A stretch of DNA of 64,000 nucleotides from the NCBI RefSeq assembly GCF_004010195.1, contig NC_057738.1:35074233-35138232 (forward strand), read 5' to 3'. The notes beneath the pieces are model-generated. The model saw only the letters and a program-made list of their open reading frames with translations, was not told where the DNA came from and did not search any database. This DNA is from Chiloscyllium plagiosum (taxonomy: Eukaryota). The translations under genes were made by a program, and so were the position numbers. Below are positions 2,857 through 61,012 of this stretch, in pieces (within the stretch, counting starts at the first letter, position 1; each line of letters opens with the position of its first letter).

Positions 2857-3195
2857 TCAGTGGTTAGCACTGCTGCCTCACAGTGCCAGGGACCCGGGTT
2901 CAGTTCCACCCTCGGGCGACTGTGTGTGGAGTTTGCACATTCTCCCCGTGTCTGTGTGGGCTTCCTCCGGTGCTCCAGTTTCCTCCCACAGTCCAAAGAT
3001 GTGCAGGTTAGGGTGGATTGGCCATGCTAAGTTGTCCCATCGTGTCCAGGGATGTGCAGGTTAGGTGGATTGGCCATGGGAAATGCAGGGTTACAGGGAT
3101 ATGGTAGGAGTGGGTCTGAGTGAGATGCTCTTCAGAGGGTCAGTGTGGACTTGATGGGCCGGATGGCCTGCTTCCACACTATAGGGGTTCTATGA
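2857..3195 (+). mobile_element. HE1 SINE
   Basis: cagtggttagcactgctgcctcacagtgccagggacccgggttc ... ggcctgcttccacactataggggttctatga. Confidence 0.92.
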
Positions 3196-3228
3196 ATGTA
3201 GTGACAAGAAAGATATGTCAAGGAGTTT

Positions 3229-3546
3229 AGAATCATAGGATCCTTACAGTGCAAAAACAAGCTATACCCCTGCATGGAATCTACACGGACCCTCCGAAGA
3301 GCATCCCACCCAAACCCATCCCTCTACCCCTGCATTTCCCATGGCCAATGCACCTAGCCTACACATCCCTGGACACTGTGGAACAATTTCCTATGGCCAA
3401 TCAACCCTAACCTGTACATCCTCAGACTGTGGGAGGAAACCCATGCAGACACAGGGAGAATGTGCAAACTCCACGCAGACAGTTGCCCGAGGCTGGAATC
3501 GAACCCGGGTCCCAGGTGCTGTGAGGCAGCAACGCTAACTACTGAG
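3229..3546 (-). mobile_element. HE1 SINE
   Basis: Reverse complement of HE1, tail-to-tail with the previous copy. Confidence 0.9.
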
Positions 3547-5650: not shown

Positions 5651-6423
5651 NNNNNNNNNNNNNNNNNNNNNNNNNNNNNNNNNNNNNNNNNNNNNNNNNN
5701 NNNNNNNNNNNNNNNNNNNNNNNNNNNNNNNNNNNNNNNNNNNNNNNNNNNNNNNNNNNNNNNNNNNNNNNNNNNNNNNNNACGTTGCTTCCTGTAGAAC
5801 AGTAAGGGACTGGGGGTGGCAGGGAGAGCCTTTTGCGTTGCGAGGATGTGGTGATGATGGCCGTTTCTGAACTTGTCGACAGATTGCAGTCTAAATGTCT
5901 GAACGGCCTGGTTGATGAATGGCAGGAAGGAATTGGATCCTGAGAGTGACGGGGGAAACCTTTTTCTTTTCTTCGATCTCCTGGACTTGCTGCCTCAGTG
6001 ATTAGATTGTTCCATTGTGTTCAGTGCTAGTTTTTGACATATTCTATGTGCGCGTGTGTAAGGCCAATATGAATTCTTATTCCGGTTAAGAGTAACGCTC
6101 TGAAAGGTTTATCAAAACCTCCTTTCTCACTCTGACAGTGGATTTTTCCATTTTCGTCAACTCGATACAAACTTTGGCACTTATTGCAGTTGCAGGAATC
6201 CCACAGCACACTGGTGTTTCCAAAATCATTCATGTTGCCAATATAACTCTCACCGTTCGATAGATAATTTTCCATAAAACACCGTTCCGTTGTACACAAA
6301 CATTTTCTTTTTTTTGTAGTTAACACATTAGCAATCAAGTCTTATTGTATTTTTGTTTTGCAAACCTGAGGTCATTGGGGACGTACATAATCTGATGTAA
6401 ATTGGTGTATACCTGCTTTCTTT

Positions 6424-6598
6424 GTTAAAAATCACGCAGCACCAGGTTATAGTCCAACAGATTTATTTGGAGGCACGAGCTTTTGGAGCACTGCTCTGAA
6501 AGCTGGTGCTTCTAAACAAACCTTTTGGACTATAACCTGGTGTTGTGTGATTTTTAACTTTGTCCACCCCAGTCCAACACTGGCTGCTCCACAACATA
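6424..6598 (+). mobile_element. Family B fold-back PLE-related element (centre deleted)
   Basis: Inverted arms gttaaaaatcac..accaggttatagtccaa / ttggactataacctggtgttgtgtgatttttaac; tail ccccagtccaacac; flanking ctttcttt at 6416-6423 and 6599-6606. Confidence 0.8.
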
Positions 6599-8507: not shown

Positions 8508-9131
8508 TTAACTTTTATTGGTTAGTGCATTGAATATAGGAGTTAGGAGGTCATGTTGCAGCTGTACAGGATATTGGTTAGGCCGCTTTTGGAATCTTGT
8601 GTGCACTTCTGGTCTCCTTCCTTTTGGAAGGATATTGTAAAACTTGACAGGGTTCATAGAAGATTTACAAGGATGTTGCCAGGATTGGAGGATTTGAGCT
8701 ATAGGGAGAGGCTGAATAGCCAGGGGCTGTTTTCCCTGGAGTGTTGGAGGCTGAGGGGTGACCTTATAGAGGTTTACAAAATCATGAGGGGGATGGATAG
8801 GGTAAATAGAAAAAGTCTTTTCCCTGGGGTGGGAAAGTCCAGAACTAGAGGGCACAGGTTTAGAGTGAGAGGTTAAAGATACAAAAGGAACCCAAGGGGA
8901 AACGTTTTCATGCAGAGGGTGGTGTGTGTATGGAATGAGCTGCCAGTGGAAATGTTGGAGGCTGGTACAATTACAGTATTTAAAAGGAATCTGGATGGGT
9001 ATATGAATAGGAAGAGTTTAGAGGGATAGGGCCAAGAGCTAGCAAATGGGGCTAGATTACGTTAGGATATCTGGTCAGCATGGACGAGTTGGACCGAAGG
9101 GTTTGTTTCTGTGTTGTACATCTCTATGACT
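8508..9131 (+). mobile_element. HER1/CR1 LINE 3' fragment, well preserved
   Basis: LYRILVRPLLESCVHFWSP..KDIVKLDRVHRRFTRMLPGLEDLSYRERL...RLRGDLIEVYKIMRGMDRV..RTRGH; tail tctctatgac. Confidence 0.93.
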
Positions 9132-10230: not shown

Positions 10231-11581
10231 TACCTTACTCTGAACAACTTTTCTTTCCAATCCTCCCACTTCCTCCAAACCAAAGAAGTAGCCATGGGCA
10301 CCCGCATGGGCCCCAGCTATGCCTGCCTCTTCGTAGGATATGTGGAACAGTCCACCTTCCGCAGCTACACTGGCACCACCACCCACCTTTTCCTCCACTA
10401 CATCGATGACTGTATTGGCGCTGCCTCGTGCTCCCACGAGGAGGTTGAACAGTTCATCCACTTTACNNNNNNNNNNNNNNNNNNNNNNNNNNNNNNNNNN
10501 NNNNNNNNNNNNNNNNNNNNNNNNNNNNNNNNNNNNNNNNNNNNNNNNNNNNNNNNNNNNNNNNNNNNNNNNNNNNNNNNNNNNNNNNNNNNNNNNNNNN
10601 NNNNNNNNNNNNNNNNNNNNNNNNNNNNNNNNNNNNNNNNNNNNNNNNNNNNNNNNNNNNNNNNNNNNNNNNNNNNNNNNNNNNNNNNNNNNNNNNNNNN
10701 NNNNNNNNNNNNNNNNNNNNNNNNNNNNNNNNNNNNNNNNNNNNNNNNNNNNNNNNNNNNNNNNNNNNNNNNNNNNNNNNNNNNNNNNNNNNNNNNNNNN
10801 NNNNNNNNNNNNNNNNNNNNNNNNNNNNNNNNNNNNNNNNNNNNNNNNNNNNNNNNNNNNNNNNNNNNNNNNNNNNNNNNNNNNNNNNNNNNNNNNNNNN
10901 NNNNNNNNNNNNNNNNNNNNNNNNNNNNNNNNNNNNNNNNNNNNNNNNNNNNNNNNNNNNNNNNNNNNNNNNNNNNNNNNNNNNNNNNNNNNNNNNNNNN
11001 NNNNNNNNNNNNNNNNNNNNNNNNNNNNNNNNNNNNNNNNNNNNNNNNNNNNNNNNNNNNNNNNNNNNNNNNNNNNNNNNNNNNNNNNNNNNNNNNNNNN
11101 NNNNNNNNNNNNNNNNNNNNNNNNNNNNNNNNNNNNNNNNNNNNNNNNNNNNNNNNNNNNNNNNNNNNNNNNNNNNNNNNNNNNNNNNNNNNNNNNNNNN
11201 NNNNNNNNNNNNNNNNNNNNNNNNNNNNNNNNNNNNNNNNNNNNNNNNNNNNNNNNNNNNNNNNNNNNNNNNNNNNNNNNNNNNNNNNNNNNNNNNNNNN
11301 NNNNNNNNNNNNNNNNNNNNNNNNNAACCTGCAATCCTCTCCCTGACCTCCCCGCCCCCACCCCCACTCCGGCCTATCACCCTCACCTTGACCTCCTTCC
11401 ACCTATCACATTTTCAACGCCCCTCCCCCAAGTCCCTCCTCCCTACCTTTTATCTTAGCCTGCTGGGCACACTTTCCTCATTCCTGAAGAAGGGCTCATT
11501 CCTGAAACGTTGATTCTCCTGCTCCTGGGTTGCTGCCTGACCTGCTGCGCTTTTCCAGCAACACATTTTCAGCTACCTTAC
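10231..11581 (+). mobile_element. 5'-truncated Penelope-like element (RT fragment, gap, 3' terminal repeat with hammerhead-like motif)
   Basis: LTLNNFSF..HFLQTKEVAMGTRMGPSYACLFVGYVEQ...LFLHYIDDCIG is a PLE-type RT. After the gap the sequence ends in CTGAAGAagggc..GAAACGTT (11484-11511) and the family A terminus. taccttac occurs at 10231-10238 and 11574-11581. Continuity across the gap is inferred. Confidence 0.85.
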
Positions 11582-11853
11582 AACAGTTACAACAATGGCC
11601 AATCACAAAGCTGGGATGGAATTTGCCAAGTCCTTTCCACTGGTTAGACCTTCTGACTATGTATGTGACTCACTTGCTGGCGGGGGCGGGGGCAAGACAA
11701 AGTTGGAAAAGTTAGTATTGTTCTTGTGAAATTGGACATGCTGTTATAACTAATTCCCAAAATAGGATTCTTCTCCACGTGTGACGTTTCTGAAGGAGAA
11801 TGAGCTCTTTTCTGATGAACAACATGCATTGCTCGAGGAGGTGTCATTATCAG

Positions 11854-12507: not shown

Positions 12508-13262
12508 ACATAGAACATTACAGCACAGTACAGGCCCTTCGGCCTTCGATGTTGCACCACCCTGTGAAACCAATCTGAAGCCCATCTAATCTACACTATT
12601 CCATTATCATCCATATGCCTATCCAATGACCATTTAAATGCCTGTAAAGTTGGCAAATCTATTACTGTTGCAGAAAGGGCATTCCACACCCTTACTACTC
12701 TCTGAGTAAAGAATGTACCTCTGACATCTGTCCTATATCTATCACCCCTCAATTTAAAGCTATGCCCCTTCTTTGCTAGCCATCACCATCCGAGCAAAAA
12801 GGCTCTCATAGTCCAACCTATCTAACCCTCTGATTATCTTCTATGTCTCAATTAAGTCACCTCTCAAACTTCTTCTCTCTAATGAAAACAGCCTCAAGTC
12901 CCTCAGCCTTTCCTCATAAGACCTTCGAGGAGAAAGTGAGGTCTGCAGATGCTGGAGATCAAAGTTAAAACTTTATTGCTGGAACAGCACAGCAGGTCAG
13001 GCAGCATCCAGGGAACAGGAGATTCGACGTTTCGGGCACAGGCCCTTCTTCAGGATTCCTGAAGAAGGGCCTGTGCCCGAAACGTCGATTCTCCTGTTCC
13101 CTGGATGCTGCCTGACCTGCTGTGCTGTTCCAGCAATAAAGTTTCAACTCCTAAGACCTTCCCTCCATTCCAGGCAACATCCTGGTAAATCTCCTCTGCA
13201 CCCTTTCCAAAGCTTCCAATAATGCGGCGACCTGCACTGTACGCAATACTCCAAGTGCAGCC
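12508..13262 (-). mobile_element. HER1/CR1 LINE 3' fragment interrupted by a family A hairpin
   Basis: LEALERVQRRFTRMLPGMEGRS(Y) continues across the insertion into ERL.DLRLFSL. Confidence 0.9.
12927..13151. mobile_element. Family A fold-back PLE-related element with intact hammerhead cores on both strands
   Basis: 93-bp arms 12963-13055 / 13057-13149 with 2 mismatches; core CTGAAGA-aGGGC-ctgt-GCCC-GAAACGTC at 13059-13086; TSD taagaccttc at 12917-12926 and 13152-13161. Confidence 0.9.
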
Positions 13263-19367: not shown

Positions 19368-19890
19368 TTAAGATGGTGTCAATCTTATTAGTAACATCCA
19401 GTGGCTTGTAGCCGGAGCCCAGTTAGATATTTGCTTTCTTTGCCACATTGAACCTGGCAAGAGACAAAGCCAGAAATTGCTGGAAAAGCTCAGCAGGTCT
19501 GGCAGCATCTGTGGGGAGAAATCAAGAGTTAACATTTTGGGTCGAGTGACCCTTCCTCAGAAACCTGATAAGAGTGTTGACTTTAGCTACATATAATTTC
19601 TTGAGAGCCTGCTGTTTGTTGGCCTTGATGTCAACAATGAAAACCAAAGTATTCTTGTCCTGAGTTTTCTTCACAGCGGACACAGTACTCAGAGGGAAAT
19701 TAATGATAGCACAACAGTCCAATTGTTCCTACTGGGAGCTCTGTCTCTGGGATACTCGGGTTTCCGGCTTGGCCTGAGTGTCCTGAGGTAGGTGTCATCC
19801 TAATTTTCTTCTGCCTGTGAACTCCCTTCAAAATGGCCACCTTGGCTTTCGAGGCCTTATCTCCTGCGTTGGGTTTTATTGGTGCGCAGC
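19368..19890 (-). pseudogene. RPL23A: Processed (intronless) ribosomal protein L23a pseudogene
   Basis: Collinear fragments KASKAKVAILKGVHRQKKIRMTPT / PSIP / [52 protein letters not shown] / FNVAKKANI*LGSGYKPLDVTNKIDTI match RPL23A; frameshifts, one stop, no introns. Confidence 0.92.
19457..19561 (-). mobile_element. Family C element inserted in the RPL23A pseudogene
   Basis: TSD aacctg at 19451-19456 and 19562-19567; minus strand CTGAGGA-aGGGTC-actc-GACCC-AAAATGTT (GAAA mutated). Confidence 0.85.
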
Positions 19891-21142: not shown

Positions 21143-22491
21143 AGCCCATTGTTGTACTCCTGTTCCTGTCACTGGTTCTAGAGTAATCTGCAGGGCACAT
21201 GTGACTGCTGTTCTAGAACTGTGAGTTAGACTGTAAGACCAGGGAAACCTGAGGTGTGGGAGTAGAATGTGTAATGGATAATAAAATTGTCAAAATGGAG
21301 GAGCAAACATGCAGACTGTTATCCTTCAAAGCTCCACCTCCCACCGAGTGAACCATCACAGTTTCTTCAGAGCTGGCTTGATCAGTGCTAATTATCAGAG
21401 TCTGTCTGACAGTTAACTGGTACATCTTTGTCACATCCCTAAGCTGATAAGCCCCGTGTCAATCTGCCTTTTCAAGCCTCTTTACCATGAAGCACCTTAA
21501 TAAGACCGCCCTCTGACGCACTGGCTGTTTCCTTCTGAACTTAAGACCATCTCCTAACGAGATGTTCCAAAACTCTCCGATGCAATTGAATCACAATGGT
21601 AGGAGTTCTTATGTTCTTTTTTTGAAAAGGGGTGACTCCCTCGAAGAACACAAGCTGTTAACTCGTCTGTAATGGACAGGTTCCATGGCTCAGCCTATAC
21701 TGTAAATCCCTCTGCCCCCAGCAAAACATTCACAAGCAGCACTTGCTGAATATGTTTGCAGCTGACGTTAGGAATCAATTTACAAACTAGATGAGAAATC
21801 TTCCTTCACCGAGTGACCCTGACCATAATCGTAGTGCAGGCAGTCCATAGGCTGTTGAATTGGTTCCATTCTGGAGCCCATTGGCAAGCTGGAACAGATG
21901 CAGGACAATGGAACGCTTGTAAGTACCGGAAATCTTAATTTGTCAGGTCTTTAAACTCAGCCCTCCCCCCACCCCCCAAATGGGACCGTGTTTGTAAATT
22001 AGTCCTGGAGAAGGCAAGTTGGTGGTGTAGTGGTGATGAACTGGCAATGCAAAGCGGTCCAATGGAATCCTCTGCAGACACTATTTCAGACTCAGCTGCA
22101 GTAGCAGGTAGAATTAATAAAGAGATCTTTGTTCTCAGGATGCAGGTATCGCTGACCAGGCCAGAGAGCATTTGGGAGACATTGCTTTAGATCTGGAGTC
22201 ACATGTAGGCCAGACTGGATAAAGTGTGGAAGTCTCCTCACTGCAGAATCTAGTTCAGCCAAAGGATCATTGCAAAGATGTACAGGTCTGCATTGAAGGA
22301 GTTAGATGGCGAGGGATAGGAGGAGGTTAGATTGGACTGTAAGGACCAACTTGTATGTCTGCTGCAGATATGTTGCAATTGCAGCATGTTCTTCCCTCTC
22401 TGATTTAAGGGTGCAGATTTGCCATCTCATTCTTGCTGCTTTGTGATGTCTCGAGAACGTGGGTGTTTTAACTGTCCGCATGGATTTGCAT

Positions 22492-22715
22492 CAGTCAAGA
22501 GTGTGGTGCTGGAAATGCATAGCATCCGAGGAGCAGGAAAATCAACGTTTCGGGCAAAAGCCCTTCGTCAGGAATGATGAAGCCCTTCCTGATGAAGGGC
22601 TTTTGCCCGAAACGTTGATTCTCCTGCTCCTTGGTTGCTGCCTGACCTGTTGTGCTTTTCCAGCACCACACTCTCAACTCTGATCTCTCGCATCGGCAGT
22701 CCTCATTTTCACCCT
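22492..22715 (+). mobile_element. Family A fold-back element with hammerhead cores
   Basis: CTGATGA-aGGGC-tttt-GCCC-GAAACGTT at 22589-22616, mirrored at about 22543-22570; TSD atg(g/t)atttgcat at 22480-22491 and 22716-22727. Confidence 0.88.
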
Positions 22716-23127
22716 ATGTATTTGCATAGTCTTTGATCGAACTATATACATTGTGTGCCACCCCTCCTTCCTATCCATCAGATCCCTTGACGATAGAGTG
22801 AATTTAGCTCTCCTCATCATTAACAGTGCTTAATGGGTGGGCATGTGCCTACCCATCCAATCATCCCTGGCACAGAGTGCCTCCAGAAGGCAATCCCAGT
22901 CAGCGGAAGGTGGAGACCTTGGACTTTCTGTCTGGGCCATGGATGCCCTCTTTACACCTCTTGTGCCACATCATAAATTTAGAAGGGAAGTTACCTGGCC
23001 TGGTCTCTGTCCGGCATCTGGTTCTTGAGTGTCTGGTGGGTCGAGATTTCACTTTTCCCCCTCCTCAGGCCAAGGTAGTAGGTGCCACTGGAGCCCCATC
23101 TAGATGTCTGGTTCATATCACAGAATG

Positions 23128-25240: not shown

Positions 25241-27105
25241 GGGTGGTGAGATCTGAGCCTTCCCACTGCACTTACATCATGCCAGAGTCAAATTGGGTAC
25301 TGCAGATAGCAATGATGGGATTGGTTAAAATCTGAAGACTAAAACCCCCTTTTTTATTGACTAGTGAAAATGTTCATATTGTAGATTGGCACCAAATTCC
25401 TTAAATAAACTGACAAACAATGCTGACCACTGCATCAACATCCTAAACCAGATGGCCCTCAACTTCCCCTAAAGCTCAGTGAAGCAACTGATGAGGCAGA
25501 GGAACTGCAGATTTCCTGCCCATCAGAAATCCACACGCAAAAAAAAATCTGTAACCTGACTCCCTTATTTTGAAGTGCTGTTCTTCGGTTTTTGAGGTGA
25601 TAGTGTTCTGGCCAGCCCCTTGTGCGGTTGGTTCATGGGGCCTTGCAGTGTCATTGTTGGGGAGGGGGAGCACATACAAGAGTTAGGACTTAATACCATT
25701 ACTGCTCAGGTACCTGCTGTCAGCTCTGACAGGAATGTCAGTGAACGTGAAGCCTTTTATGCCTGTTACTTGCAAAGTGCTCTTCTGGAGAAGGGATTGC
25801 TGTATCTGTAGCAGCCTGAGCAGCTTGTGTTGCCCCAGGTACAGTATGTAGACAGATCTGTGAGCCTAATCCTGCTTTCTCCCCATAACCTTTGATCCCA
25901 TTCCCCCAAGTGCTATATCTAGCCGCCATCTTCCAATCTGTGGCACTATTTTAATGTCCCTTCCCTTTCCTCAAACTCCCCCTACTCCATTTCCCTAATA
26001 AAGACCAGAAATGGTTCTGTGATTCACAAATGTCCGTGAGCATTTGCTGAATAAATATCTGCACTAAATTTTAAAGTAGTTGTTCTGCCTGAAATTGTGG
26101 CCTGAAATGTGAAATGAAACCAATCAGGTGTCGCGTGCGTGGAAGGAGTTTTGAGCGTGTGTGTGTGTGTGCCCGCTCTTGTTTTTTTTTCTCTTTTAAG
26201 CGCAGGGTTTTGGAAGAGGATTTGTGTGTTTTCGAAACCTTCAGTGGCTTATTTTTGGATGGCTGTGCAGGATTTCCTTGACAAATGAGCTGCAGGAGTG
26301 CGAGATGCTGGATCGTATCCTGTTGAGTTCAGGGGTCACTCTGCCAAAACTTTCTGACTTTGTCGGCAGACCACCTGTACCATATTGGCGAAGTCAGGAG
26401 GAGACAAATATTGCCCCTTTCTCCCCTTTTTCCATTGCGTTCTGTTTTAATTCCCATGACTGTTGCTGCAAAGGGATCCTTAATGGAAGACGGTGGCCAC
26501 TTTAATTAATAGCTTTATTTGTGACGTTGGTCTGCTGCATTAAGCACTAAATCCTGGACTATGCCGTCGCAAGGAACAGGGAGCTGTCTCCTTTGAACTG
26601 GTTGTGCAAGTCCGTAGCTCGAATTCTGTGGAAAGTCCTGAGCACTGAGGCTGTCTGGTGTGTGGGAGAGGACTGGTTAATTCGCCATCAGCAACCCCCC
26701 CCCCCCCCATGATGGTGGTCACCCTTTTTCTCAACCTGTTCAAGGACCCCAGAGAAGAGGCAGCATTCCCATCCCTTTCCTCTCTCTGTGTGCTGAGCCC
26801 TGTTGACCCCACAGTGGCACCCCGAAAATTGTGGGATGCAGGAGGGAGATTGATAGCCCAGTGAGTCCACCATCTAAAGAGCCAGAAGAGAACTTTAAGT
26901 TGCCTAACTCTGGAATTCCCAACTCCCAGCTCTCAACATCTGTGGGGATTGAAGTCCAGGAATTAAACACACAACGCTGGAGAAACTCAGCAGGTCTGAT
27001 AGCATCTGTGGATGGAGAAGCAGGTCACGTTCTTTTTAATATAAATATCTATATACATACATAGTTACTAAAGTAGTTGATTCTTTAAAGGAGCATATGA
27101 AGAAA

Positions 27106-27244
27106 GTGTGGTGCTGCAAAAGCATATCAGAATTTCTGATGAAGAGCTTATGCCCAAAACATTGATTCTCCTGACCTTCTGCGCTTTTCCAGCACCACAC
27201 TCTCGACTCTGATCTCCAGCACCTGCAATGCTCACGTTCTCCTT
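27106..27244 (+). mobile_element. Family A element (short left arm)
   Basis: Perfect 13-bp TSD gcatatgaagaaa at 27093-27105 and 27245-27257; degenerate core ctgatgaagagcttatgcccaaaacatt. Confidence 0.85.
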
Positions 27245-27367
27245 GCATATGAAGAAACAAACAAACAAAAATTGGAGTTTGACTCTATCCAGCAAACAAA
27301 TACAAGGCATTTGTTACTAATACAAGACTATATTTATATAGCAGGAGTGTCTGATAACTGAACGGAC

Positions 27368-27460
27368 TCCCCTGAAGAAGAGTTACATCTGAAACGTTGA
27401 CTTCTCCACCTCCTGATGCTGCCTGGCTTGCTGTGTTCTTCCAGCCTCCTGCCTATCTAC
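27368..27460 (+). mobile_element. Family A/C-related variant with hammerhead-like core
   Basis: CTGAAGAagagttacatctGAAACGTT (27372-27398) then gatgctgcctggcttgctgtgttcttccagcc; relatives at 36730-36812 (-) and 47170-47232. Confidence 0.7.
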
Positions 27461-27502
27461 ACTATTAAACGTTTGGCAGAAAGAGCTCAGACAGTGGTCT
27501 TT

Positions 27503-27702
27503 CAGAAGTCACGTGACAGCAGGTTATAATCCAAAGGTTTATTTGAAAATCACACAGAGCGCAGATGTGCTTCTGTGAGCACCTGACGAAGGAGCAGCGC
27601 TCCGAAAGCTCGTGTGATTTCAAATTAACTTGTTGGACAATAACCTGTTGTCATGTGACTTCTGACTTTGTCCACCCCAGTCCAACACCGGCACCTCCAC
27701 AT
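27503..27702 (+). mobile_element. Family B fold-back element with intact hammerhead core
   Basis: cac-CTGACGA-aGGAGC-agc-GCTCC-GAAAGCTC-gtg at 27580-27614; arms cagaagtcac..acagcaggttat / ataacctgttgtcatgtgacttctg. Confidence 0.85.
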
Positions 27703-28014
27703 TGTAGTCTTGCCCCACTGAGCTTGACGGTAGCTGCCCCAAGCTTTGGTGTGTGTCTCAGCGAGTAGTCCTGGACCTTGGGATGTGCCAGTCTGCAATA
27801 CTCCGCCAAGGTCAACTCCTCGCAGTTAACATTTTGAGTCCAATATGACTCTTCCTCATAAGAAATGTTTGGAGAGAAATGAGCCAGGAGCAGGCAGGTG
27901 GGACTAGTTTAGTTTGGGATTATGTCAACATGGACTGGTTGGACCGAAGGGTCTGTTTCCGTGCTGTATGACACTATGATTCTATAAAGAAGTCTTGGTG
28001 CACTTGTACAGGGT

Positions 28015-30020: not shown

Positions 30021-30808
30021 TTGATGATCTTGTCTAATAAAGGCCTTAACCTTACACAGTAGCTTTGATCAGTGGTTTACCTCCGCTGTTGCTGTTGGCT
30101 GTAGTCAGAACGTGATAATTAGGTCTCAGAGCCACCAAATTACAGGTAGGAATGTCGACCTGGGGTTATCCTCCTGTTCACTATCCACTGAATCGAGCAT
30201 TGTGTTTCAGAGGCCTGAGGAGGAATTGATCTGTTTAACAGTGCCAGCCCCTCCAATTGTATCGGCTCACGCATGATAAAGAGGGACAGGCAGGGAGCTG
30301 AGTAAATGCATTTTGGATTAATGATGCTGGAAGAGCACAGCAGTTCAGGCAGCACAATTCTACAACAGTTGAAGTCTTCAAAGGTGTAGGGACAGGAATT
30401 GGTGTGGGATGTTCTGGAGAATCTTAGTGGCCAAAAAGTGATGCATTCTTTTCTGAAACTGGGGGGCGTGAGGGGAAACTTTAATGGGAGCAATCCGTCC
30501 TCTATAATCCAAATGCTATAGTAACTGGCTTTTGGGTGAAGTTTACAGGAAATCCTTCAGCACCCCTCAAAAGTTTGGATTTTAACTTTCCAGTTAACTG
30601 TTTTCCATTTTTTCATTGTCCATGGTCAGCAGTGTCGAATCCTGTCTCTTTTGCACAAGTTTTATCTTTTTTTCTAAAACATATAATTTCTGTGTAAGCT
30701 TCCCTTTTTTTTAAATCAACAACAGCGTACATTTGTACAGCACTATTTAGTGCAATGAAACATTCCCAAGCACTTCATGGGTATGAAAGGGGACTCCAGT
30801 TGATATAA

Positions 30809-31010
30809 GTCAAAGACTGTAATGCTGGAAAAGCACAGCAGGTTAGTCAGCATCTGAGGAGCAAGAGAGTTGATGTTTCGGGCATAAGCCCTTCATCAGG
30901 AATGCCCGAAACGTCGACTCTCCTCCTCGAATGCTGCCTGACCTGCTGTGTTTTTCCAGCACCACGCTCTCGACATTGATCTCCAGCATCTGCAGTGCTC
31001 ACTTTCTTCC
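30809..31010 (+). mobile_element. Family A fold-back element inserted in an L2-type 3' end (about 30717-31170)
   Basis: Minus-strand core CTGATGA-aGGGC-ttat-GCCC-GAAACATC at 30872-30899; tccagttgat(a/g)taa at 30795-30808 and 31008-31021. Confidence 0.87.
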
Positions 31011-31731
31011 AGTTGATGTAATATTGGGTCAGAGGGGCATAGGAGGAGGTTTTAAGAGAGTGTCTTAGATTTAGGAAGAAGGTGAGACTGGAAGATGGAA
31101 AGTTCTAGGGTCTTGGCAGCTGAAGTCACAACCGGCAGTGGTAGAGGGATTATAGGCAGGACAGCTTAAGGGGTCAGTGCACATGTTTGTTTGTTTGCCT
31201 GTTTCCAGTTTTAATCAGGTTTAAGCCTTGTTCCCACTTCCCAAACCAACTGCCCTCCTATTAATTGTCTCACGTGTACTGATTTTGTGTTTCTGTCTCC
31301 CACTCTCTCAACCATTTTTCCATATCCTGTTCAATTCCAATTGCTACTCCACTTCTATTGCTGTTAATGCATTGCCTTTGCTCTATTGCTATTGCTCTGT
31401 TGCTGTTGCTGTTACTCCAGCTCCTTTGCTTCTAGGTTCCCCTTGACTGTCCGTGCGGTATTTCCCTATTATCACACAGTGTTTCAGCTATTCTTGTTGG
31501 AGTTTACTCCCAGTGACTAGCCCTGGATGTTTTAAATGCTGAAATGCTTCAGACTGTATTTCTGTGTCACACCCGTCCTTTAATGAAATATTATGAGTAA
31601 ACCATCTCTTACACTGAAACTCGTGTCATCACTTCGAGTGAGCCATCTCTCCAGAGCCGAGACCTGGAAAGTGTTGAACCTTTTGTCAGGCAGACTGGGT
31701 TTCTGTTAGGATGGCTGCAACTGTGTCCTAT

Positions 31732-31832: not shown

Positions 31833-32783
31833 ACCTCCCGAGTAATATCTTTTAAAAGCGTTTTCGCTCTGGCACCTTGTAAGATCTACTCTGACTATGT
31901 CGTGTGGTGTGTTGTTGTGAACAGTCCCTACACAGATGTGTTTGCGACAGATTTGTTGATCTTCCCCACTGACCTGATCATAGTTTGAATCGCTGCATAA
32001 TGCTGGTGGGCATTTCAGGGGACTGACAAAGGACAGGCACTGAGGAGGTTGTCAAGGTAACCCCTAGCTCCTCACCTAGCAGAATTCCCATTTATCCAAG
32101 TGCACTTCTGGAAAATCCTGGCTTTGGCAATGGGGCCTTACCTCAGTGCCTGAGGTTAGGTCGGAGTAAGGCGTAGGAACAGTAGTAGGTCACCCAACCC
32201 CTCTGACCTGTTCGGGGAGATCATTGCCAATCCCATCGAGGCTTTGAATTTGCTTTTGTGCTGCCCCTCTCTAACTGTTGATGCCCTGTCCATGTGAACA
32301 TAGGAAATCAGAGGCAGACTGTAATCATTCAGGCAGACCAACTGGAAAGGAGCATTGTTCATTATTGAACGATAAAGTAGAGCCACTACATGTGGTGTAC
32401 ATCCCAGACCAGGACAGACAGTTCTGTAGACCCATCCTTGGGCCCTCAAAGCTGCTTGACCTGCTGTGCTTTTCCAGCCTTACGTCTGTTGACTCTGACC
32501 TCCAGCATCTGCAGTCCTTACTGTCTTCTGCAAGGGCTCAGGTGATGAGTTCCAGCCTTTGCCTGTCACCATGGGAACTCATATGCAATGAACTCCAGAA
32601 GGAGATTAATTAGTGATTAATTAGTAGGGGGTTATCTTGCTGTCCATTAAGTACTTGAGCCGGCTCCACCATTCAATAAGATCTGATCCAATCTGTTTGT
32701 GTAATAAAATTCCACTTCCCCACTTACCTTGATTACTATTGATTCTAACAGAAGTCTACCTCCCTCCGTCTTAAAAATATTAA

Positions 32784-32984
32784 GTTAAAAAATGACACAA
32801 CACCAGATTATAGTCCAACAGATCTATTTGGAAGCACTAGCTTTTGGAGCGCTGTTCCTTCATCAGGTAGTTGATGAAGGAGCAGTGTTCCGAAAGCTAG
32901 TGCTTCCAAATACATGGACTATAACCTGATGTTGTGTGATTTTTAACTTTGTCCAACTCTAGTCCAACACCGGCATCTCCACAT
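32784..32984 (+). mobile_element. Family B fold-back element inside a minus-strand CR1 fragment (about 32650-33050)
   Basis: About 80-bp arms around ttcatcaggtagttgatgaa; hammerhead-like cores on both strands with single changes; flanks ttaaaaatattaag / ttaaaaaattaag. Confidence 0.87.
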
Positions 32985-33439
32985 TATTAAAAAATTAAGC
33001 AGTCCTGTCTGCGCACTGCCTTTTGAGGCAGAGAGTTACATAGGCACAAACCCCCCCCCCAGGACAGGACCTTGGTGTGGGCTGACATCCCTTCCACATT
33101 AAATCTCTCTTGCCCTCCCCCAGATCAGAAAGTAAATAGATTTTGGGGGGAGGGGGAAGAGGGAGAAAAGATGTGGAAGAACTAAAGGAAACCTTGGTGG
33201 AAGGCAGGAGAGATTAAATAACTAAAGATTTCATGGTACAAAATGCAAAGGGAATGGTAAAAGACAAAAGATAAGGCCAGGTGAGGTGTGAATGCTGGAT
33301 GGCAGCTCTCCGACTACAGCATGAAGAGCTAAGAAAAAAACCATCTTGATTCTTGTGCTGTGAATGGTGTTGGTCAGTCCACATTTATTATCAATTCGGA
33401 GTGGCACGGAGGGTAGTGCTCGATTTCCTTCAACCTGGG

Positions 33440-35390: not shown

Positions 35391-36819
35391 ACTGTCTCCT
35401 TCCAGGGCAGCAATTCTGTGGAGTGCTTTCAGTTCGTTTTAATCAACTTGTTCAGGTGTGTCTGGAATTGGTGGAGCTTGAACCCAAGCCTCCTGGCCCA
35501 GAGGTAGGGACAATACTATTGTATCAAAGAAGCCCCTTTTGATTTCAAGTTAACCTATTGTAACACATGTCTGGAACGTGGGATTTGAACCCAGGACTCC
35601 TGGCTCCAAGGTAAGAGCGCTACCACTGCACCGCATCCAATGAAGTTATACCCAAATGTGAGTGAGGACGCATATTTGGTCTGTGGAATCATGCTACTGT
35701 TGTTGGTTTTGAGGACTGCCTCTCCCGATCTGTTGTTGTTGACGATATGTTGCCATAGTATGGATTTGTGTCCCACTCAGTCCCACTGCTGCTACTGAGA
35801 GATGGGGATTTGTAAACGCTGCGCTCTCTTTGGACTTCCTGCTGAGGGAAGTGAGGACCAGCTAAAACTGAGAACAACTGCACCAGGAATGAAAGAAGGG
35901 AGAGACGAGGTGGAGGGACCAATTGACTACATAGAGTCTAAGGGAACAAGTGTAAATAATACTACTTAATCGCCAACTCAGCTGGAGGTGAGGCATCACG
36001 AGCAACGTTTCTGGCTTTCCAGTGCGGTCGGGGTTATTTGAAATAGAAACTCGACGAGGAAGTGAGTTGACACTAAGCTCCTTGTCTTTCTCTGTCATCA
36101 CCCCAGCAGTGTTTCACCAGCAACTGAAACCCGAGGTGCTGAGCTCCAGCACTCGCCCTGAAGCTGCATTTCAGGTTTTTCTGCCCGGACAAAAGGCTTT
36201 GTTTCTCTCAGAGGTGAACTAAAGCAACAACCCAGCTTTTATTTTCTCCCCTCGGCAACTCTTGGCTCGGAGACCTGCTGCGTCGCCGCCGCCGATTGGC
36301 AGCTTGGGAATGCTGGGTAACGAGTTATTACGGCAAACAGACAGCACCTCTCACCTCCTTCAATAAAAATTACCCAGCACAAAGTACACTGAGCTCTGTG
36401 TTGCAACACTGCCGTCCACATCAGTGTTTCTTTTCAGTTCTGTTGCAGGTAAATGAAGAATAAAGTCTCCCTAGCAATGCGTTGCTGTGTCAGAAGACCA
36501 CTCTGTGTGCCAATCACCACGCATTGTCTCAGAGTGCTTATCATTTGCATACCTACCTCTCTATTCACAAACTGTCTTCCCAAAGGACTTTTGCAATCAT
36601 CAAAAGGAGGAATTTTCATGCTAATTGTCAAAACATTAGGACCAGCAGTCATCATTTAAACATGGTTCCTGTAGTTGAGGGAGTGATTGGTTTATTCACT
36701 CATGGAACGCCATGTTACTAGCTGACAAGCAGGTGGCTGGGAGAACACAGCAAGTCAGGCAACATCAGGAGATGGAGACGTCAACCTTTCAGGTGTAACC
36801 CTTCCTCAGGACTTCAGGT

Positions 36820-38584: not shown

Positions 38585-38865
38585 CTGAGAGTTAACATTT
38601 GGAACGTGGTATGACTCTCCTTTGGAACTGCTGCAGGAATCAGCTCCAAAGGACAGTCCTATGAAAAGTCATCTAGACTCGAAACGTTAGCTTGCTCTCC
38701 CTCCATGGATGCTGCCTGACTTGCTGTGACCTCCAGCAGTTTTTGTTTTCCAGACTAGACTTAAAATGTTCACTCTGTTTCTGCCTCTGCGGATGCTGCC
38801 AGACGTGCTGAGTATCTCCAGCACTTCGTGTTTCGTTTTTAGATGACAACATTTGCAGTATTTTG
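38585..38865. mobile_element. Cluster of family C fragments
   Basis: aGTC-atcta-GACTC-GAAACGTT-agct at about 38667-38692; two gatgctgcc(t/a)gac..gctg..ctccagca..ttttg termini. Confidence 0.7.
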
Positions 38866-39964: not shown

Positions 39965-40485
39965 CCTCTGTTTTGGTCACTCTGTTATAGAAAAGATATT
40001 ATGAAGTTGAAGAGGGTTCAGAAAGATTTACCAGGTTGTTGCTGGGACTTGAGTTATCAAAGTAGGCTGGGACTCTTTTCACTGGAGTGTAGGAGGGTGA
40101 GGGGTAACCTTTATAGAGGCTTATAAACTTATGAGGCGCATGGATAAGATGAGTGAGAACAGTCTATTCCCCAGAGTGGTGGAGTCCAAAACTTGGGGGG
40201 ATATGTTTAAGGTGAGAGGAGAAAGATTTAAAAAGAACCATGAGGGGCAACGTTTTCACACAGAGAGTGGGTTCATAGGTGGAACGAACTGCCAGAGGAA
40301 GTGGTGGATGTAGGTACAGTTACAGCATTTAAAAGACATCTGGATGGGTATTTAATAGGAAAGATTTAGAGGGATATGGGCCAAGTGCTGGCAAATGGGG
40401 CTAGATTGGGTTGGGATATCTGGTCGGCATGGACGAGTTGGACTGAAGGGTCTGTTTCTGTGCTGTTCACCTCTATGACTCTGTG
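39965..40485 (+). mobile_element. HER1/CR1 LINE 3' fragment
   Basis: KDIMKLKRVQ..., MDKM..NSLFPRVVESKT.G; tail ctctatgactctgtga. Confidence 0.9.
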
Positions 40486-40605
40486 ACACCTGACGAAGGA
40501 GCAGTGCTCCGAAAACTTCTGAATTCCAATAGACCTGTGGGACGATAACCTGGTGTCATGTGACTTCTGACTTTCTCCACCCCAGTCCAACACCGGCACC
40601 TCCAC
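40486..40605 (+). mobile_element. Family B single arm with hammerhead-like core
   Basis: cac-CTGACGA-aGGAGC-agt-GCTCC-GAAA at 40487-40514; tail ccccagtccaacaccggcacctccaca. Confidence 0.82.
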
Positions 40606-42474
40606 AAAATTTCTTTTTGCTGCCAGCTTCTTGTAGGTTTGCTCCTTCAACTGACGCACGTAGGTGTGGACTCAAACAGCAACTCTAGCTCAGAGGCTGT
40701 TGCTAGGCAGCCTTGAGTACAGGCCTCTCAAATCATTCTGAATTATAAGCCATGAAAGCCATTTCTGATCCCTCGTTTAAAAAAAAACCTTTGGTTTACA
40801 TTCTGTCAACAGAGTCAGTTGACTTTTGTTTTGGAAAAAGTAGGTGAACCAAAGCACACTTCAAATCTTGGCTCCTTTTTAAACTGTCTACAACCCAGAA
40901 ATTGTCCAAATTCTTCCATCTCTTCCAGAGTCCCCTCCGCTGTTATTTTTTTCGGGACTGTATATTCCCAGCACGCACTATAGTGCAGCACTGAGGGAGT
41001 GTACTTCCTTCCTCCAACCCGACCCCACCTGAGGTTCTGGCCCATCTGGTTGTCTTTAGTGGGAGCTTGCTGTGCACCAGGTTTCCTGAATAAAACTGCA
41101 TTTGAAAAGTTGTAGTGAGTGATTATCCCAGCAGCTCAGCGTTGAGTTAACATGATGAAGGGACCCTCAGGATCTCTTTCCACTAATTTGGCTCTTCACT
41201 GGATTCTCCCCTCGATCTGTTTCCTTACTAGGCTGATCTGGAGGGAGATGCTGTGGTGTTTGGGGTGGGGATGGGAAGAGGACTTGACTGGAGTTGGGTA
41301 AGACTTTGGGATGGGTCATGACGGCGGGGGGGCGCGGTGCACGGTGGAGTGGATAAAGTAGCATCCTTGCTGCCTGTTGATTGTGTCATGGCACTGGGTC
41401 TGCCTGTGGTCCTTGAATGGTCCTCACAGCGAGTTTCCAATGGGCACTTTGATTTGAAATTCCTCTCCCTCCTATCTTGGAGCTGAGGCACTGACCTATC
41501 CTCTGTGTGATCACGAGCCCCCGTGAGCCTACGAGTTCAGCAATATCCGGAACATTATCCCCTCTCCCGCTCCCCAGTTTGAGTCCTGGCTCTCGTTGGT
41601 TTAAGCATTATGGTGGCCGTGTTTGTATCTAACACAATCTTGCTCTGAAATTCTCTTCCTCGCTGATATCTGAAATGGGTCAGAGATTCAGCATCTGCAG
41701 GGGGTCACGTTTGTCCCTGTAGAGTGTGGCTCCTCAAGGTGTGAACGAGACAGGATGGCAGCTCCCTTAAACAGAGCGAGTCAGTTCCCTCCCCTTCCTG
41801 TCAGGGCAAGATGCTTATAAAGAGAGGGGCAGGAGAGCAAGGCGCCGTTCAGCCTGGGGTGCAGGGTTTCTGTTTGAAATCTTGCAGCATTTGTTGAGGA
41901 CGGCTTTTGAAAGGATGCCGTGATTGGGCAGAGCGCACTTTTCTGAGCAGAGACCTGACCGAGAGTTCAGTGACCTCTAAAGCGAGGGCAGAGAGGGTGT
42001 TGTTGTAACAGACGGTCAGGGACACTGTATTCTGGGCATGTAGATGTATGTGTGTGCAGGTCATCTGGCACAGAAACAGGCCATCCAGCCCGACCTGGTC
42101 TTGTGCTCCCCTTGATCATTCCTCATTGAAATATGCCATCGTAGCCCTTCATTGCCTTCCCTCTGTCACGTGTTTATCCAGCCTTCCCTTAACAGCACCG
42201 ATACCAGAATAGTGTGTCCCACATTGTCTTCAGCAACAAGCAAGAGCCAGAGAGCCTCACTGTGTTCCACCGGGAAGGGGGTTTGGTGATGCTTTGGGAT
42301 CCCTGTTCTTCTGTGAGCCAACAGACTTCTCCAATATCGGCTAGCGCTTGTCCCTCTCCTCAGAGGTCACAGGTCACCTCGAGAACCAAATCAATGTTGA
42401 CCCCTCCAGTGCATTACTGAGGGATTGCTCACTGTCAGAAAGACCATCTGCTGGGTCTCTGACACGTTGCTTGA

Positions 42475-46212: not shown

Positions 46213-46519
46213 TAATCACCATAAATGTTTCCATTTACCTTAGCTCTCAACTACATTAGTTGTAACTTGATGTATAGTGTATGACAGAAACTGGCCATTC
46301 AACCCAAACAGATTGTTCTAGCCCTTATTTTCTGTGTAAGTTCCACTTGTCTTTCTTTGTCTGATCCAATTGTACGAGAGAACACATTATTACAATCTTG
46401 AGTGAGTCCCGATAGCTTAAGATGGGAATCCAGAAAGGATCTACACTGGGGAGATGAGGAATCACTTAATCCTCTTTATGAATTAACTTGTTAGACCGTC
46501 TGGAAGTTGGATGATGTTT

Positions 46520-46904: not shown

Positions 46905-47075
46905 CATTTTCATGAAGGCGTTGCTGGCTAGGCCAGCATTTATTACCCAACCCTAATTGCCCGGGGGGCAGTTAAGGGCCAATCACATTGCTGTGGGCCT
47001 GGAGTCATATGTAGGCCAGACCGGGTAAGGATGGCAGTTTCCTTCCCAAAAGGACATGAGTGAACCAGATTTTGT
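46905..47075 (-). mobile_element. SINE family X 3' part
   Basis: gctggctaggccagcatttattacccaaccctaattgccc..ggagtcatatgtaggccagaccgggtaaggatggcag. Confidence 0.75.
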
Positions 47076-47094: not shown

Positions 47095-47660
47095 CACGTC
47101 GAGAATGAGGTTAACAAAGCAGACAGTATCCTCAGCTGTATAAACCAGGGCTTAAAGTTGGCTTAGAGACCTGAGGAAGGGTTAGACCCGAATGCTGCCT
47201 GGCCTGCTGTGTTCTTCCAACCTCCTGCCTGTATGGAGCAGGGAGGTTTAGTTGAAGTTATATTAGCCAGTAGTTGAGTCTGAGCTGGAGTATTGTGTGC
47301 AGTTCTTGGAGTTGAACTGTAGGGAGGATGTGTTGGAATTGGAGCAAGGGCAGAACAGATTCCTGAGAATGATTTCAGGGATGAGTTTTGTAAATGGATT
47401 GAACAGGATGGAAGTGTTTGACTTAGTGAGGAGAAGACTGAGAGGGGATCAGATTGAGGTGTTCAACATCACAAGCAGGATCTCGACAGACAGAGAGAGA
47501 GAGAGAGGAACTGTTCCCACTCATAAGCTGATGCAGGACCAGCTTTGAAATAATTCGTAAAAGAAGCAAAAACCACTGGATGAAAAAGCCTTTTCTGCAA
47601 AGTGAGTTTTTAAAGGTGTGGTGGAGACCAGTTCAACTGAACCTATCAAAAGAGGATTAA
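47095..47660 (+). mobile_element. Degenerate HER1/CR1 fragment with nested hammerhead-family piece (47170-47232)
   Basis: ELEYCVQF..NCREDVLELE..Q.RF.RMISG...RRLRGDQIEVFNI. Confidence 0.75.
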
Positions 47661-48291
47661 GTGATTCCTCATCTCCCCAGTGTAGATCCTTTCTGGATTC
47701 CCATCTTAAGCTATCGGGACTCACTCAAGATTGTAATAATGTGTTCTCTCGTAATCTAAGAAAGGAAAACTGCATAGAGAAGGTGGGAGGTTGGCGCTGA
47801 GTGAGGAGGGTTAGCACAGACACAATGAGCGAAATGGCCTCCTGGGTGGGGCGAGGGGTTGTCAGGGTTCTGAGAGGAATGGAATGGGTGAGGATGGAGG
47901 GAGTGCTTTTTGGGTGTGGCTTTGTGTGTGATTGATGGGGATGAAATAGGGGTAGTTTGGCAAATGAGTTCTGTTGCAATAAAGACATGAATTGTCACTT
48001 GAATGTTTTATGGGCCTCTGCTGGCAGAGGTGTAAGTGGCTTGAAACATAATCAGTTCTTAACCAGAGAGCCATCAGTTCAGTTTTGGAGAAGCAGTTCC
48101 CTCTTTATCAGTTGATACCATCTGTTGTCAGTGACTGACTGTGTTAACAGCCCATGTTCTAAACATAACCTCCTCCAGCTGTGCCTCTGCCATGGTGGCT
48201 CTCTCAGACTGGAGCCCTCTTGGGCTGAAAGGAGTCCCTGAGTAAGTCCATTCCACAAATCCCACCTTGTCAAATGTGCAGGACTGAGCCC

Positions 48292-48322: not shown

Positions 48323-48670
48323 CTCTGCATTCTGGGGGTGCTGGAATGTGCTGATGTTCCAACAGTCAAAGGGGTTTTTCAGCAGCTTGGCTTGTTTGTG
48401 GTGACGTAGAGTTGAGAGGGGGAAGAGGTTGGTTGGTCGGTCTAACCCACCATCTCCTGCTCCATTGCCACCACCTGCTTTCTATAGTTAGCGACTCCCC
48501 AGTGAGATTGAGGTCAGGCCTAGTATGTGTGAACCCCCTCCCACCCAACTCCTTTTCAGGCTCACCTCCTCACAGCCACTATCTGTGTTCGTACAGCAAA
48601 GCTGAGCCCATTGGAGTGAGAGTAGGCCATTCAGCCCATTGAATGTGCTCCGCTGTTCACTGAGATTATG

Positions 48671-59585: not shown

Positions 59586-60017
59586 ATTTTTGGATCTAAC
59601 ACCATCCCTCCATCTCAAGCTATTTGTAGTATAGGAGGGTTTCTATCTCTATGGTAACCACCTACGCTGACTCGATGGGGAAAAGGATTAACCCACACTG
59701 AGGACATATATTAATAGATGGGACTTATTTTAATATTCTGTCCTCATCAGAGAAGAATCCAAGTGATCAGGGTAGAGATTCCCATCTTATCCACAGATAC
59801 CGACTATGTTTCATTCCCTCAGCAGCAAAGTCCTTGGATTGAATCGTTTTATTTCTGGTTACTTGGACAATTGTTCAATGGCTATCTGGAAGAATGGGAA
59901 GATGCTGCATTAGAATGGTGGCTCATCCCATTCGAATGATGCTCTGCTTGAGATGTTCAGGATCTGGAGTTTCATTAACAATTAAACTACACATAAATGA
60001 ATGATGGATGTTGATAT

Positions 60018-60242
60018 GGGGGTCAAGAGTGTGGTGTTGGAAAGACACAGCAGGTCAGGCTGCATCCGAAGAGCAGGAGAATCAGCGTTTTGGGCATAAG
60101 CCCTTCTTCTAGAAGCTGATGAAGAGCTTATGCCCGAAACATCAATTCTCCTGCTCCTCGGACGCTGCCTGAACTGCTGTGTCTTTCCAGCACCACACTC
60201 TCGACTCTGATCGCCAGCATCTGTGGTCCTCACTTTCTCCCA
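60018..60242 (+). mobile_element. Family A fold-back element
   Basis: Perfect 15-bp TSD gatggatgttgatat at 60003-60017 and 60243-60257; core CTGATGAagagcttatgcccGAAACATC at 60116-60143. Confidence 0.9.
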
Positions 60243-61012
60243 GATGGATGTTGATATCCTGGTGTAGAGGTAGCGACACTATCAGTGCATCACAAGAGCC
60301 CTCTGTGAGTGATGCATGGAGCCAGTAAAACCAGCTGACCAGAGCACAGTAGTCTGATTGTAATTAGTATTTATAGATCCATTATGACAAAAGGAAGCCA
60401 TTCTGCCCATTAAATCCCTGCTGGCATTTGATTGACCAATAGGTCCCAGTTAACCTCTACCTCCACTTCTCCCTCCAGTCCATTTTTGTTTTGAATCCAG
60501 CTTCCGTTTTGGAATCCTTTGCCATTTCCACCACCTTCACAGATGCTACATTCCAGGTCTTTCCCGCCCCCCCCTCGTCATTTTACAAAATTCTTCTTCA
60601 TAATCTCCCTCCCTGTATCTCTAAGCCACATCCTTGAATCTGTGTTCCCTCTTGTCCTTGTACCGGAAGAGCTTTACTTTGTCTGCCTTATCTGAAGTTG
60701 ACATAATCGTGTACATCTCAAATCTCCCCTCCAACTCCTTTGCTCCAAGATCAACCCCAGTTTCTCCAAGGTAACCTTTTGTTACTAAACTTCCTCCTGC
60801 CGGGAGCCATTCTAGTAAAGCTGACCATAATAGGACTTAGTCACCTAGTTGTGGCCCAACTAGAGCTTTGTTCTGGCTCAGTGTGACTCCTCCCTTGTTG
60901 TGTACGATATCTTTATTCCTGAAGCCCCAGGGACCATTTAATGGCTGCCACCTTCATGAGATAGTAGGAAATAGGAGCAGGCCATTGATACAATGGGATT
61001 GTGGCTAACCTG

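What the first reader, a model, noticed from the sequence alone, without database searches (positions are those of the whole stretch)
12917..13161. Family A: short fold-back mobile elements with hammerhead-ribozyme cores and 10-15 bp TSDs
Seen: five copies (12927, 22492, 27106, 30809, 60018) are 140-225 bp inverted-arm structures, each flanked by its own direct repeat (taagaccttc; atg(g/t)atttgcat; gcatatgaagaaa; tccagttgat(a/g)taa; gatggatgttgatat). Near the apex they read CUGA(U/A/C)GA-a-GGGC-NNNN-GCCC-GAAA-C(G/A)U(C/U). Stem II is mostly kept while its 4-nt loop varies (ctgt, tttt, ttat). Known: Penelope-like elements carry minimal type I hammerheads with a tiny palindromic helix III and often insert with an inverted terminal repeat. 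Inference: this is either a non-autonomous ribozyme-bearing PLE derivative or the product of extreme 5' truncation plus inversion at the ribozyme site. In the full hairpins both strands encode a core, but the hairpin would sequester it, suggesting a self-silencing or dsRNA-producing unit. Helix I is weak in this family (about 2 bp).
Basis: partly seen in the sequence, partly recalled or inferred. Interest (0 to 1): 0.78.

Follow-up and report, generated by a model that had tools for sequence, protein, structure and literature searches.

The report
Head-to-head Penelope retroelement stubs, shark
These short hairpin-shaped insertions are real, but they are pairs of cut-off ends of a known kind of jumping gene (a Penelope-like retrotransposon) that landed head to head in a shark-type genome, carrying that family's ordinary hammerhead ribozyme motif rather than forming a new mobile element.

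Summary
All five hairpins and their 10-15 bp target duplications are real. Each is two short 3' ends (pseudo-LTR) of a Penelope-like element (PLE) joined head to head; exactly one arm carries the 31-35-nt PLE 'tail' (5 of 5). The likely parent lies in the window: an RT fragment (10234-10467; 86-87% identical to carpet-shark proteins, one with a Neptune-type linker and GIY-YIG) and, beyond an assembly gap, the same end with its hammerhead (11484). The motif is the published minimal PLE hammerhead; both arms are intact in only 2 of 5 copies, and covariation is not significant. Arms start 0-6 nt before the core, not at the cleavage site; public contigs show the same start. Apices all differ, and in one copy each arm holds sequence the other lacks, which favours two cDNAs primed from both nicks over a self-copying hairpin or a single snap-back. 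Inverted pLTR plus tail plus TSD is published; this scan found the same thing repeatedly on other DNA of this genome. No evidence for self-silencing. Ordinary kind, with a modest mechanistic lead.

The parts
12917..12926 (.). Left target-site duplication of copy 12927 (10 nt)
   Evidence: host LINE codons 'RS' duplicated
12927..13055 (-). Copy 12927 left arm: PLE 3' end with tail (tail 12927-12961; hammerhead C3 at 13053, predicted cleavage after 13026)
13056..13151 (+). Copy 12927 right arm: PLE 3' end without tail (hammerhead C3 at 13059, predicted cleavage after 13086); 89 of 91 columns identical to left arm
13152..13161 (.). Right target-site duplication of copy 12927
22480..22727 (.). Copy 22492 with TSD (22480-91 / 22716-27): no-tail arm 22492-22577 (-), 8-nt filler made of core-like sequence, tail arm 22586-22715 (+); both cores intact
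27093..27257 (.). Copy 27106 with TSD (27093-105 / 27245-57): 19-nt no-tail arm stub, 7-bp mini fold-back at the start site, tail arm 27132-27244 (+) with G12>A
30795..31021 (.). Copy 30809 with TSD (30795-808 / 31008-21): no-tail arm 30809-30904 (-) reaching -5; tail arm 30902-31007 (+) starting in loop II (+14); 3-nt ATG microhomology at the joint
60003..60257 (.). Copy 60018 with TSD (60003-17 / 60243-57): no-tail arm 60018-60110 (-) cut inside the core, palindromic apex, tail arm 60116-60242 (+)
10234..10467 (+). RT fragment of a 5'-truncated PLE (probable parent), cut by an 859-nt N gap
   Evidence: Pfam RVT_1 E=0.01, below the curated cut-off; 86-92% identity to P0001/P0002/P0004
11326..11572 (+). 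3' end of that PLE: pyrimidine-rich stretch, preferred 5' boundary of short copies at 11479-11480, hammerhead C3 at 11484 (stem II decayed), family A arm ending at the no-tail site
12793..13261 (-). Older LINE-type reading frame (CR1-like, label recalled) interrupted by copy 12927
   Evidence: similar frame at 8547-8876

Best explanation
Each hairpin is one insertion event of a Neptune-type Penelope-like retrotransposon that delivered only two short cDNAs of its 3' end (pseudo-LTR). Steps: (1) the element's GIY-YIG endonuclease makes a staggered cut 10-15 nt apart (TSD shown; enzyme inferred). (2) Each of the two 3'-OH ends primes its own cDNA on element RNA, one from the outer RT start site (gives the tail) and one from the inner site (no tail) (arm anatomy shown; the two start sites and cutting/extension of both strands are known in vitro for the anole Poseidon element, PMC11167929; their use here is inferred). 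(3) The cDNAs mostly run to a preferred RNA 5' boundary about 4 nt before the hammerhead core, after 90-130 nt (boundary shown; that it is a transcription start in the pLTR is a guess). (4) The two cDNA ends are joined head to head with 0-3 nt of microhomology or a short templated filler, and gaps are filled (junctions shown; repair route inferred). The copies are then dead and decay, the core mostly at CpG. The hammerhead is a passenger that matters, if at all, in the parent's RNA.
For: Tail on exactly one arm in 5 of 5 family A hairpins and 4 of 4 two-arm family B hairpins. Parent-type copy with RT fragment and the same end in the window; relatives carry RT + C-X4-C-X2-C linker + GIY-YIG. 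30809: the no-tail arm reaches -5, the tail arm starts at +14, joined by 3 nt of microhomology, so neither arm can be a copy of the other; the same holds in family B copies 54080 (no-tail arm about 58 columns longer at its 5' end) and 32788 (about 6 nt). All five apices differ. In public contigs, position 11480 is a listed loose-end site with unlike flanks (171 contigs of run X1, agreement 0.32), and 9 of the 27 joints shown land on 11479/11480. Published PLE anatomy: inverted pLTR, tail on one end, 8-10 bp TSD, mostly head-to-head (PMC3846280; PMC8557442); dual minimal hammerheads on opposite strands 100-700 bp apart (PMC4209133).
Against: The RT fragment and the 3' end are linked only across an N gap; I found no contig or protein that joins the arm to an endonuclease ORF. 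In 60018, 27106 and family B 27502 the tail arm reaches as far or further 5' than the no-tail arm, which a single snap-back would also give; palindromic apices (60018, 27106) are what Arkhipova et al. read as self-priming. Post-insertion deletion could also shorten one arm of 30809, 32788 or 54080. Only 5+4 copies were dissected and no genome was available. No RNA 5' end was seen at 11480 (table 6 empty; a poly(A) single-cell library is not suited to show it). Family B copy 6424 is ambiguous because stem II is itself a palindrome.
Confidence: 0.85

Rival explanations
1. Same PLE origin, but the inverted arm is made by self-priming (snap-back) of one nucleic-acid strand, as proposed for rotifer Penelopes on an antisense template.
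For: Palindromic or templated apices in 60018, 27106 and 22492; the two arms of a copy share private variants; model in PMC3846280.
Against: 30809, 54080 and 32788: the tail arm lacks 5' sequence present in the no-tail arm and the no-tail arm lacks the tail, so neither is a template for the other. The no-tail end also occurs on the un-inverted parent copy (11572), so it is a real start site and not a stop of fold-back synthesis.
Confidence: 0.25
2. A distinct non-autonomous element whose master is itself the hairpin and is copied as a unit by PLE proteins, perhaps making dsRNA that silences the family.
For: Narrow size range (139-225 bp), recurrent start near the core, very many matching contigs (35,422, 130,143 and 36,751 laid in three DNA runs; not a copy number).
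Against: No two apices alike; arms are 72-87% identical between copies but 98% within the youngest copy; cores decay at CpG in 5 of 10 arms; RNA reads lie on both strands with no defined ends.
Confidence: 0.07
3. Arms end where the hammerhead cuts the RNA (cleavage-defined truncation).
For: All apices lie within about 35 nt of the ribozyme.
Against: Predicted cut is after 11511 in parent coordinates; 0 of 9 measured arms start there and 11512 is not among the 24 loose-end rows shown (896 more not shown). In the anole element, ribozyme-dead RNA inserts as well as wild type (PMC11167929).
Confidence: 0.04
4. A MITE or fold-back DNA transposon.
For: Short, inverted arms, TSD.
Against: TSD length varies (10-15 nt), ends are asymmetric (tail), the centre varies, and the arm is the end of an RT-bearing element.
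Confidence: 0.02

Closest known systems
Endonuclease-positive PLE insertion unit: pLTR, adjacent inverted 5'-truncated pLTR, 30-40 bp tail, TSD (Arkhipova et al. 2013, PMC3846280, passages read; Craig et al. 2021, PMC8557442, passages read)
   Same: Head-to-head inverted ends, tail on one end, TSD of about 10 bp, palindromes or microhomology at junctions.
   Different: Here the unit is reduced to the two ends alone (140-225 bp, no ORF between); TSDs run to 15 bp; host is an elasmobranch.
Minimal hammerheads (min-HHR) of metazoan PLEs (Cervera and De la Pena 2014, PMC4209133, Results and Discussion read)
   Same: Type I core, extra base between A9 and stem II, G10.1-C11.1, palindromic 15.2-16.2 (ACGU), short helix I; found in fish Neptune/Poseidon/Xena pLTRs; dual motifs on opposite strands reported in Schistosoma.
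   Different: Stem II is 4 bp (7-8 bp in the Schistosoma motifs), helix I is 2 bp plus a mismatch and one pair; sharks are not mentioned in the sections read.
Poseidon of Anolis carolinensis (Frangieh et al. 2024, PMC11167929, main text parts 1-2 read)
   Same: Two adjacent RT start sites bounding the tail, about 110 nt downstream of the hammerhead; both DNA strands cut and extended.
   Different: Different clade; the text searched has no 'head-to-head' and does not discuss inverted copies.
Non-LTR retrozymes (Li, Clavereau, Pollet 2026, bioRxiv 10.64898/2026.07.22.740005, parts 1-3 read; its supplements closed)
   Same: Short non-coding pLTR-derived units with a type I hammerhead, reported also in one chondrichthyan.
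   Different: Defined as head-to-tail tandems; the five copies here are head-to-head pairs. Head-to-tail joints to 11479/80 do occur in public contigs.

Membership tests
EN+ Penelope-like element insertion product | Arm is the 3' end (pLTR) of an element with a PLE-type RT | tested here: met
   Same sequence ends a copy with an RT fragment, 86-87% identical to shark RT proteins, one with GIY-YIG; the link crosses an N gap
EN+ Penelope-like element insertion product | 30-40 bp tail at one end only | tested here: met
   31-35 nt, one arm, 5 of 5
EN+ Penelope-like element insertion product | Inverted 5'-truncated copy, head to head | tested here: met
EN+ Penelope-like element insertion product | Target-site duplication | tested here: met
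   5 of 5; null 3 of 1000 at score 9
Neptune clade | CX2-5CxxC linker between RT and C-terminal GIY-YIG (shared with Nematis) | tested here: met
   In relatives P0004, P0014 and others (definition); not visible in the window (gap)
Neptune clade | Placement in an RT tree with reference clades | not tested
   No named reference PLE proteins in hand; Nematis not excluded by test
Minimal type I hammerhead of PLEs | Core C3-A9, G12-A15.1, U16.1-H17; extra base after A9; G10.1-C11.1; palindromic 15.2-16.2 | tested here: met
   Fully met in 4 of 10 arms (12927 L/R, 22492 L/R); decayed or truncated in 6
Minimal type I hammerhead of PLEs | Preferential conservation of the core | tested here: met
   Non-CpG core mismatches 1 of 90 against 52 of 537 downstream, Fisher p=0.003; rows are not independent
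Minimal type I hammerhead of PLEs | Covariation in stems | tested here: inconclusive
   66 of 500 shuffles reach the observed score on 13 rows; single compensated pairs only in sister subfamilies (GGGT/ACCC, GGGTC/GACCC)
Minimal type I hammerhead of PLEs | Self-cleavage as dimer or with protein | not testable with these tools
   Needs an assay
Non-LTR retrozyme | At least two head-to-tail units each with a hammerhead | tested here: not met
   Arms are head to head in all five
MITE / fold-back DNA transposon | Symmetric fixed terminal inverted repeats and fixed TSD length (definition recalled) | tested here: not met
   Asymmetric ends, TSD 10-15 nt

The most novel reading that the evidence does not exclude
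The hairpins are the minimal product of the PLE integration reaction: a dimeric PLE protein primes two cDNAs from the two nicks, one at each RT start site, and both run off a defined short RNA that begins 4 nt before the hammerhead (an initiator-like TCATTCC in the pLTR; consensus recalled). The many copies in shark genomes would then be a natural read-out that decides between twin priming and antisense self-priming for PLE head-to-head junctions and marks the element's RNA 5' end.
Probability: 0.4. Interest if true: 0.45.

Novelty: new member of a known kind. Interest (0 to 1): 0.2.

Why it matters
As an element it is ordinary: a shark example of the published PLE inverted-end pattern with the published minimal hammerhead, useful mainly for repeat annotation, where such stubs can be mistaken for MITEs, SINEs or microRNA hairpins (Rfam gave only sub-threshold miRNA-shape hits). 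The one point of wider use is mechanistic: how PLEs make head-to-head junctions is unsettled in the papers read, and these short, TSD-bounded copies let arm starts and junctions be counted directly.

Tried and rejected
No whole genome is held, so no genome-wide census. Rfam at E<=5 gave 5 matches, none a hammerhead family and none at gathering score. DNA patterns found nothing in metagenome and viral contigs; 38 prokaryote hits of a 19-mer are taken as chance, 3 of 38 extended weakly (E about 1e-4 within the set). P0004 found no relative in metagenome contigs. No RNA holder on record was listed for the stretch; the one raw RNA run laid (X21, another organism label than run X1) gave 2,323 reads on both strands and no start or end peaks, which is no evidence on expression. 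Single arms fold no better than shuffles (z -0.5 to +1.1), though stem II is predicted in all 6. Stem covariation not significant. The idea that the arm contains the ORF start (MLPDLL...; frame open through the tail in 5 of 5 tail arms; one gene model, P0056, begins with such a peptide) was tested by codon position on 23 blocks and is inconclusive (21 of 74 synonymous against 0.24 expected). The binomial figure printed is not used, because the copies were picked for being short. One row of alignment A1 (57470) was taken from a decayed copy with no recognisable core and left in. Paper searches: shark + Neptune + Penelope + hairpin + transposable element gave 0; twin priming + Penelope + inverted + second strand gave 1 unrelated paper, listing only; searches listed no paper on shark PLE hairpins. 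The library lacks most subscription journals, Repbase and Dfam, so absence from print is not shown.

Full report
Observation. Target-site duplications of 10-15 nt flank all five; the scan's scores (9-15) were reached by 3 of 1000 random windows at 9 and by none at 10. Copy 12927 interrupts a LINE-type reading frame: the right flank reads ...RMLPGMEGRS and the left flank RSYEERLR..., with RS present twice, which shows the duplication is of the target. Four of the five fold into long hairpins; 27106 has only a 19-nt left arm.

What the arms are. Aligned on the hammerhead strand, all arms are the same 90-130-nt sequence with their 3' ends pointing outward. One arm per copy carries 31-35 extra bases: the left arm in 12927, the right arm in the other four. 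A profile of the arms finds 24 matches in the window, among them 11481-11574, which is the end of a longer piece. Upstream of it, across an 859-nt N gap, lies an RT fragment (10234-10467; Pfam RVT_1 at E=0.01, below cut-off) that is 86-87% identical to proteins named from Chiloscyllium and Rhincodon. P0004 carries RT, a C-X4-C-X2-C linker and a GIY-YIG domain, the layout given for Neptune and Nematis PLEs (PMC8557442, passages). The window is therefore most likely from a carpet-shark-like elasmobranch, and family A is the pseudo-LTR end of a Neptune-type PLE. The link across the gap rests on the scaffold; no protein or contig bridged it.

The ribozyme motif. It matches the minimal PLE hammerhead of Cervera and De la Pena (PMC4209133, Results and Discussion read): extra base after A9, G10.1-C11.1, palindromic ACGU in place of helix III, short helix I. 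Among ten arms (nine from the hairpins, leaving out the 19-nt stub, plus the parent) non-CpG core positions differ from the majority in 1 of 90 cells against 52 of 537 downstream (p=0.003, rows not independent), so the core was kept among master lineages. Individual copies decay: G12>A in two arms, CG>CA in the palindrome in three, stem II broken in three; only 12927 and 22492 are intact on both arms. Covariation on 13 rows is not significant (66 of 500 shuffles). Rfam gave no hammerhead hit. Activity was not testable; published minimal motifs cut poorly alone and the anole one needs protein and is dispensable for insertion in vitro (PMC11167929).

Where the arms begin. Relative to C3, strict matching to the parent gives starts at -4 and -2 (12927), -3 and -6 (22492), 0 (27106; -4 if one mismatch is allowed), -5 and +14 (30809), 0 and +4 (60018). 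The predicted cleavage site is at +27/+28 and no arm starts there. Public data agree: laid on 11326-11600, run X1 has 171 contigs with loose, mutually unlike sequence before 11480; 9 of the 27 joints shown (28 more not shown) land on 11479 or 11480, mostly head-to-tail returns; two opposite-strand joints (11481/11524, 11490/11529) are listed at low depth; and raw RNA depth roughly triples across 11476-11495. So short copies have a preferred 5' boundary about 4 nt before the core. TCATTCC there fits an initiator consensus (recalled), and Penelope has an internal start site in its pLTR (PMC2377424, passages), but no RNA end was observed, so this stays a guess.

How the hairpin is made. All five apices differ: near-blunt (12927), 8-nt templated filler (22492), 7-bp mini fold-back (27106), 3-nt microhomology (30809), short palindrome (60018). 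The two arms of one copy share private variants in 4 of 4 cases (6, 1, 1, 1) against 8 of 41 between-copy pairs (1 each), so each hairpin was made from its own template lineage. In 30809 the no-tail arm reaches 19 nt further 5' than the tail arm, so neither can have been copied from the other; family B copies 54080 and 32788 show the same. With the in vitro facts that a PLE protein cuts and extends both strands and starts at two sites bounding the tail, the simplest account is two cDNAs primed from the two nicks and joined at their ends. Against it: later deletion could mimic the asymmetry, three other copies fit snap-back equally, and Arkhipova et al. (PMC3846280, passages) read junction palindromes as self-priming. 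I put the PLE by-product identity at about 0.9, and twin priming at about 0.65 against 0.25 for snap-back.

Comparison with what is known. Inverted 5'-truncated pLTR, tail at one end and an 8-10 bp TSD are described for PLEs, and pairs of minimal hammerheads on opposite strands 100-700 bp apart were reported in Schistosoma. It is not a retrozyme by the tandem definition and not a MITE. My searches listed no paper on shark PLE hairpins or on twin priming in PLEs; Repbase, Dfam, most subscription journals and the bioRxiv supplements were out of reach, and supplements of the PMC papers were not opened. Earlier notes of this scan report the same kind on other pieces of this genome; I had reached the reading before seeing them and they are not independent support.

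Verdict. Interest 0.2; the arm-start and two-cDNA observations are a modest lead that a genome-wide count could settle.

Noticed in passing
window 6420-6598, 27500-27703, 32782-32986, 54080-54258, 40484-40606: A second PLE-type family (stem II GGAGC/GCTCC, palindrome AGCU) forms the same head-to-head pairs with a tail on one arm in 4 of 4 two-arm copies; 40484 is a single arm. Only 54080 has a clear 12-nt TSD in my scan.
   Followed up: partly
window 48668-48862: Three-piece family B insertion: truncated tail arm (-), no-tail arm (+), no-tail arm (-) reaching the start site; no TSD seen.
   Followed up: partly
window 19477-19563, 27371-27445, 36736-36811, 38678-38825, 47168-47221, 844-892, 58361-58520: Single-arm relatives of family A from sister subfamilies, some with other stem II pairs (GGGT/ACCC, GGGTC/GACCC).
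   Followed up: partly
window 46373-46477 and 47649-47753: A perfect 105-nt inverted repeat around 1171 nt of mixed repeats; a recent inversion, an insertion with inverted ends or an assembly artefact.
   Followed up: no
window 49799-49992: Another fold-back (79-nt arms, 90% complementary, 36-nt spacer) of a repeat that also matches near 46940-47037; not matched by the family A or B searches.
   Followed up: no
window 2857-3545 and many other places: Inverted pairs of a very common short repeat (shark SINE-like, label recalled).
   Followed up: no
protein P0001: A protein filed under Proteus mirabilis is 92% identical to the shark-type RT fragment on a 474-nt contig, most likely host DNA in a bacterial assembly.
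   Followed up: no
window 13087-13151 and homologous arms: A frame starting MLPDLL runs open through arm and tail and may be the start of the PLE ORF, as in rotifer pLTRs; codon test inconclusive.
   Followed up: partly
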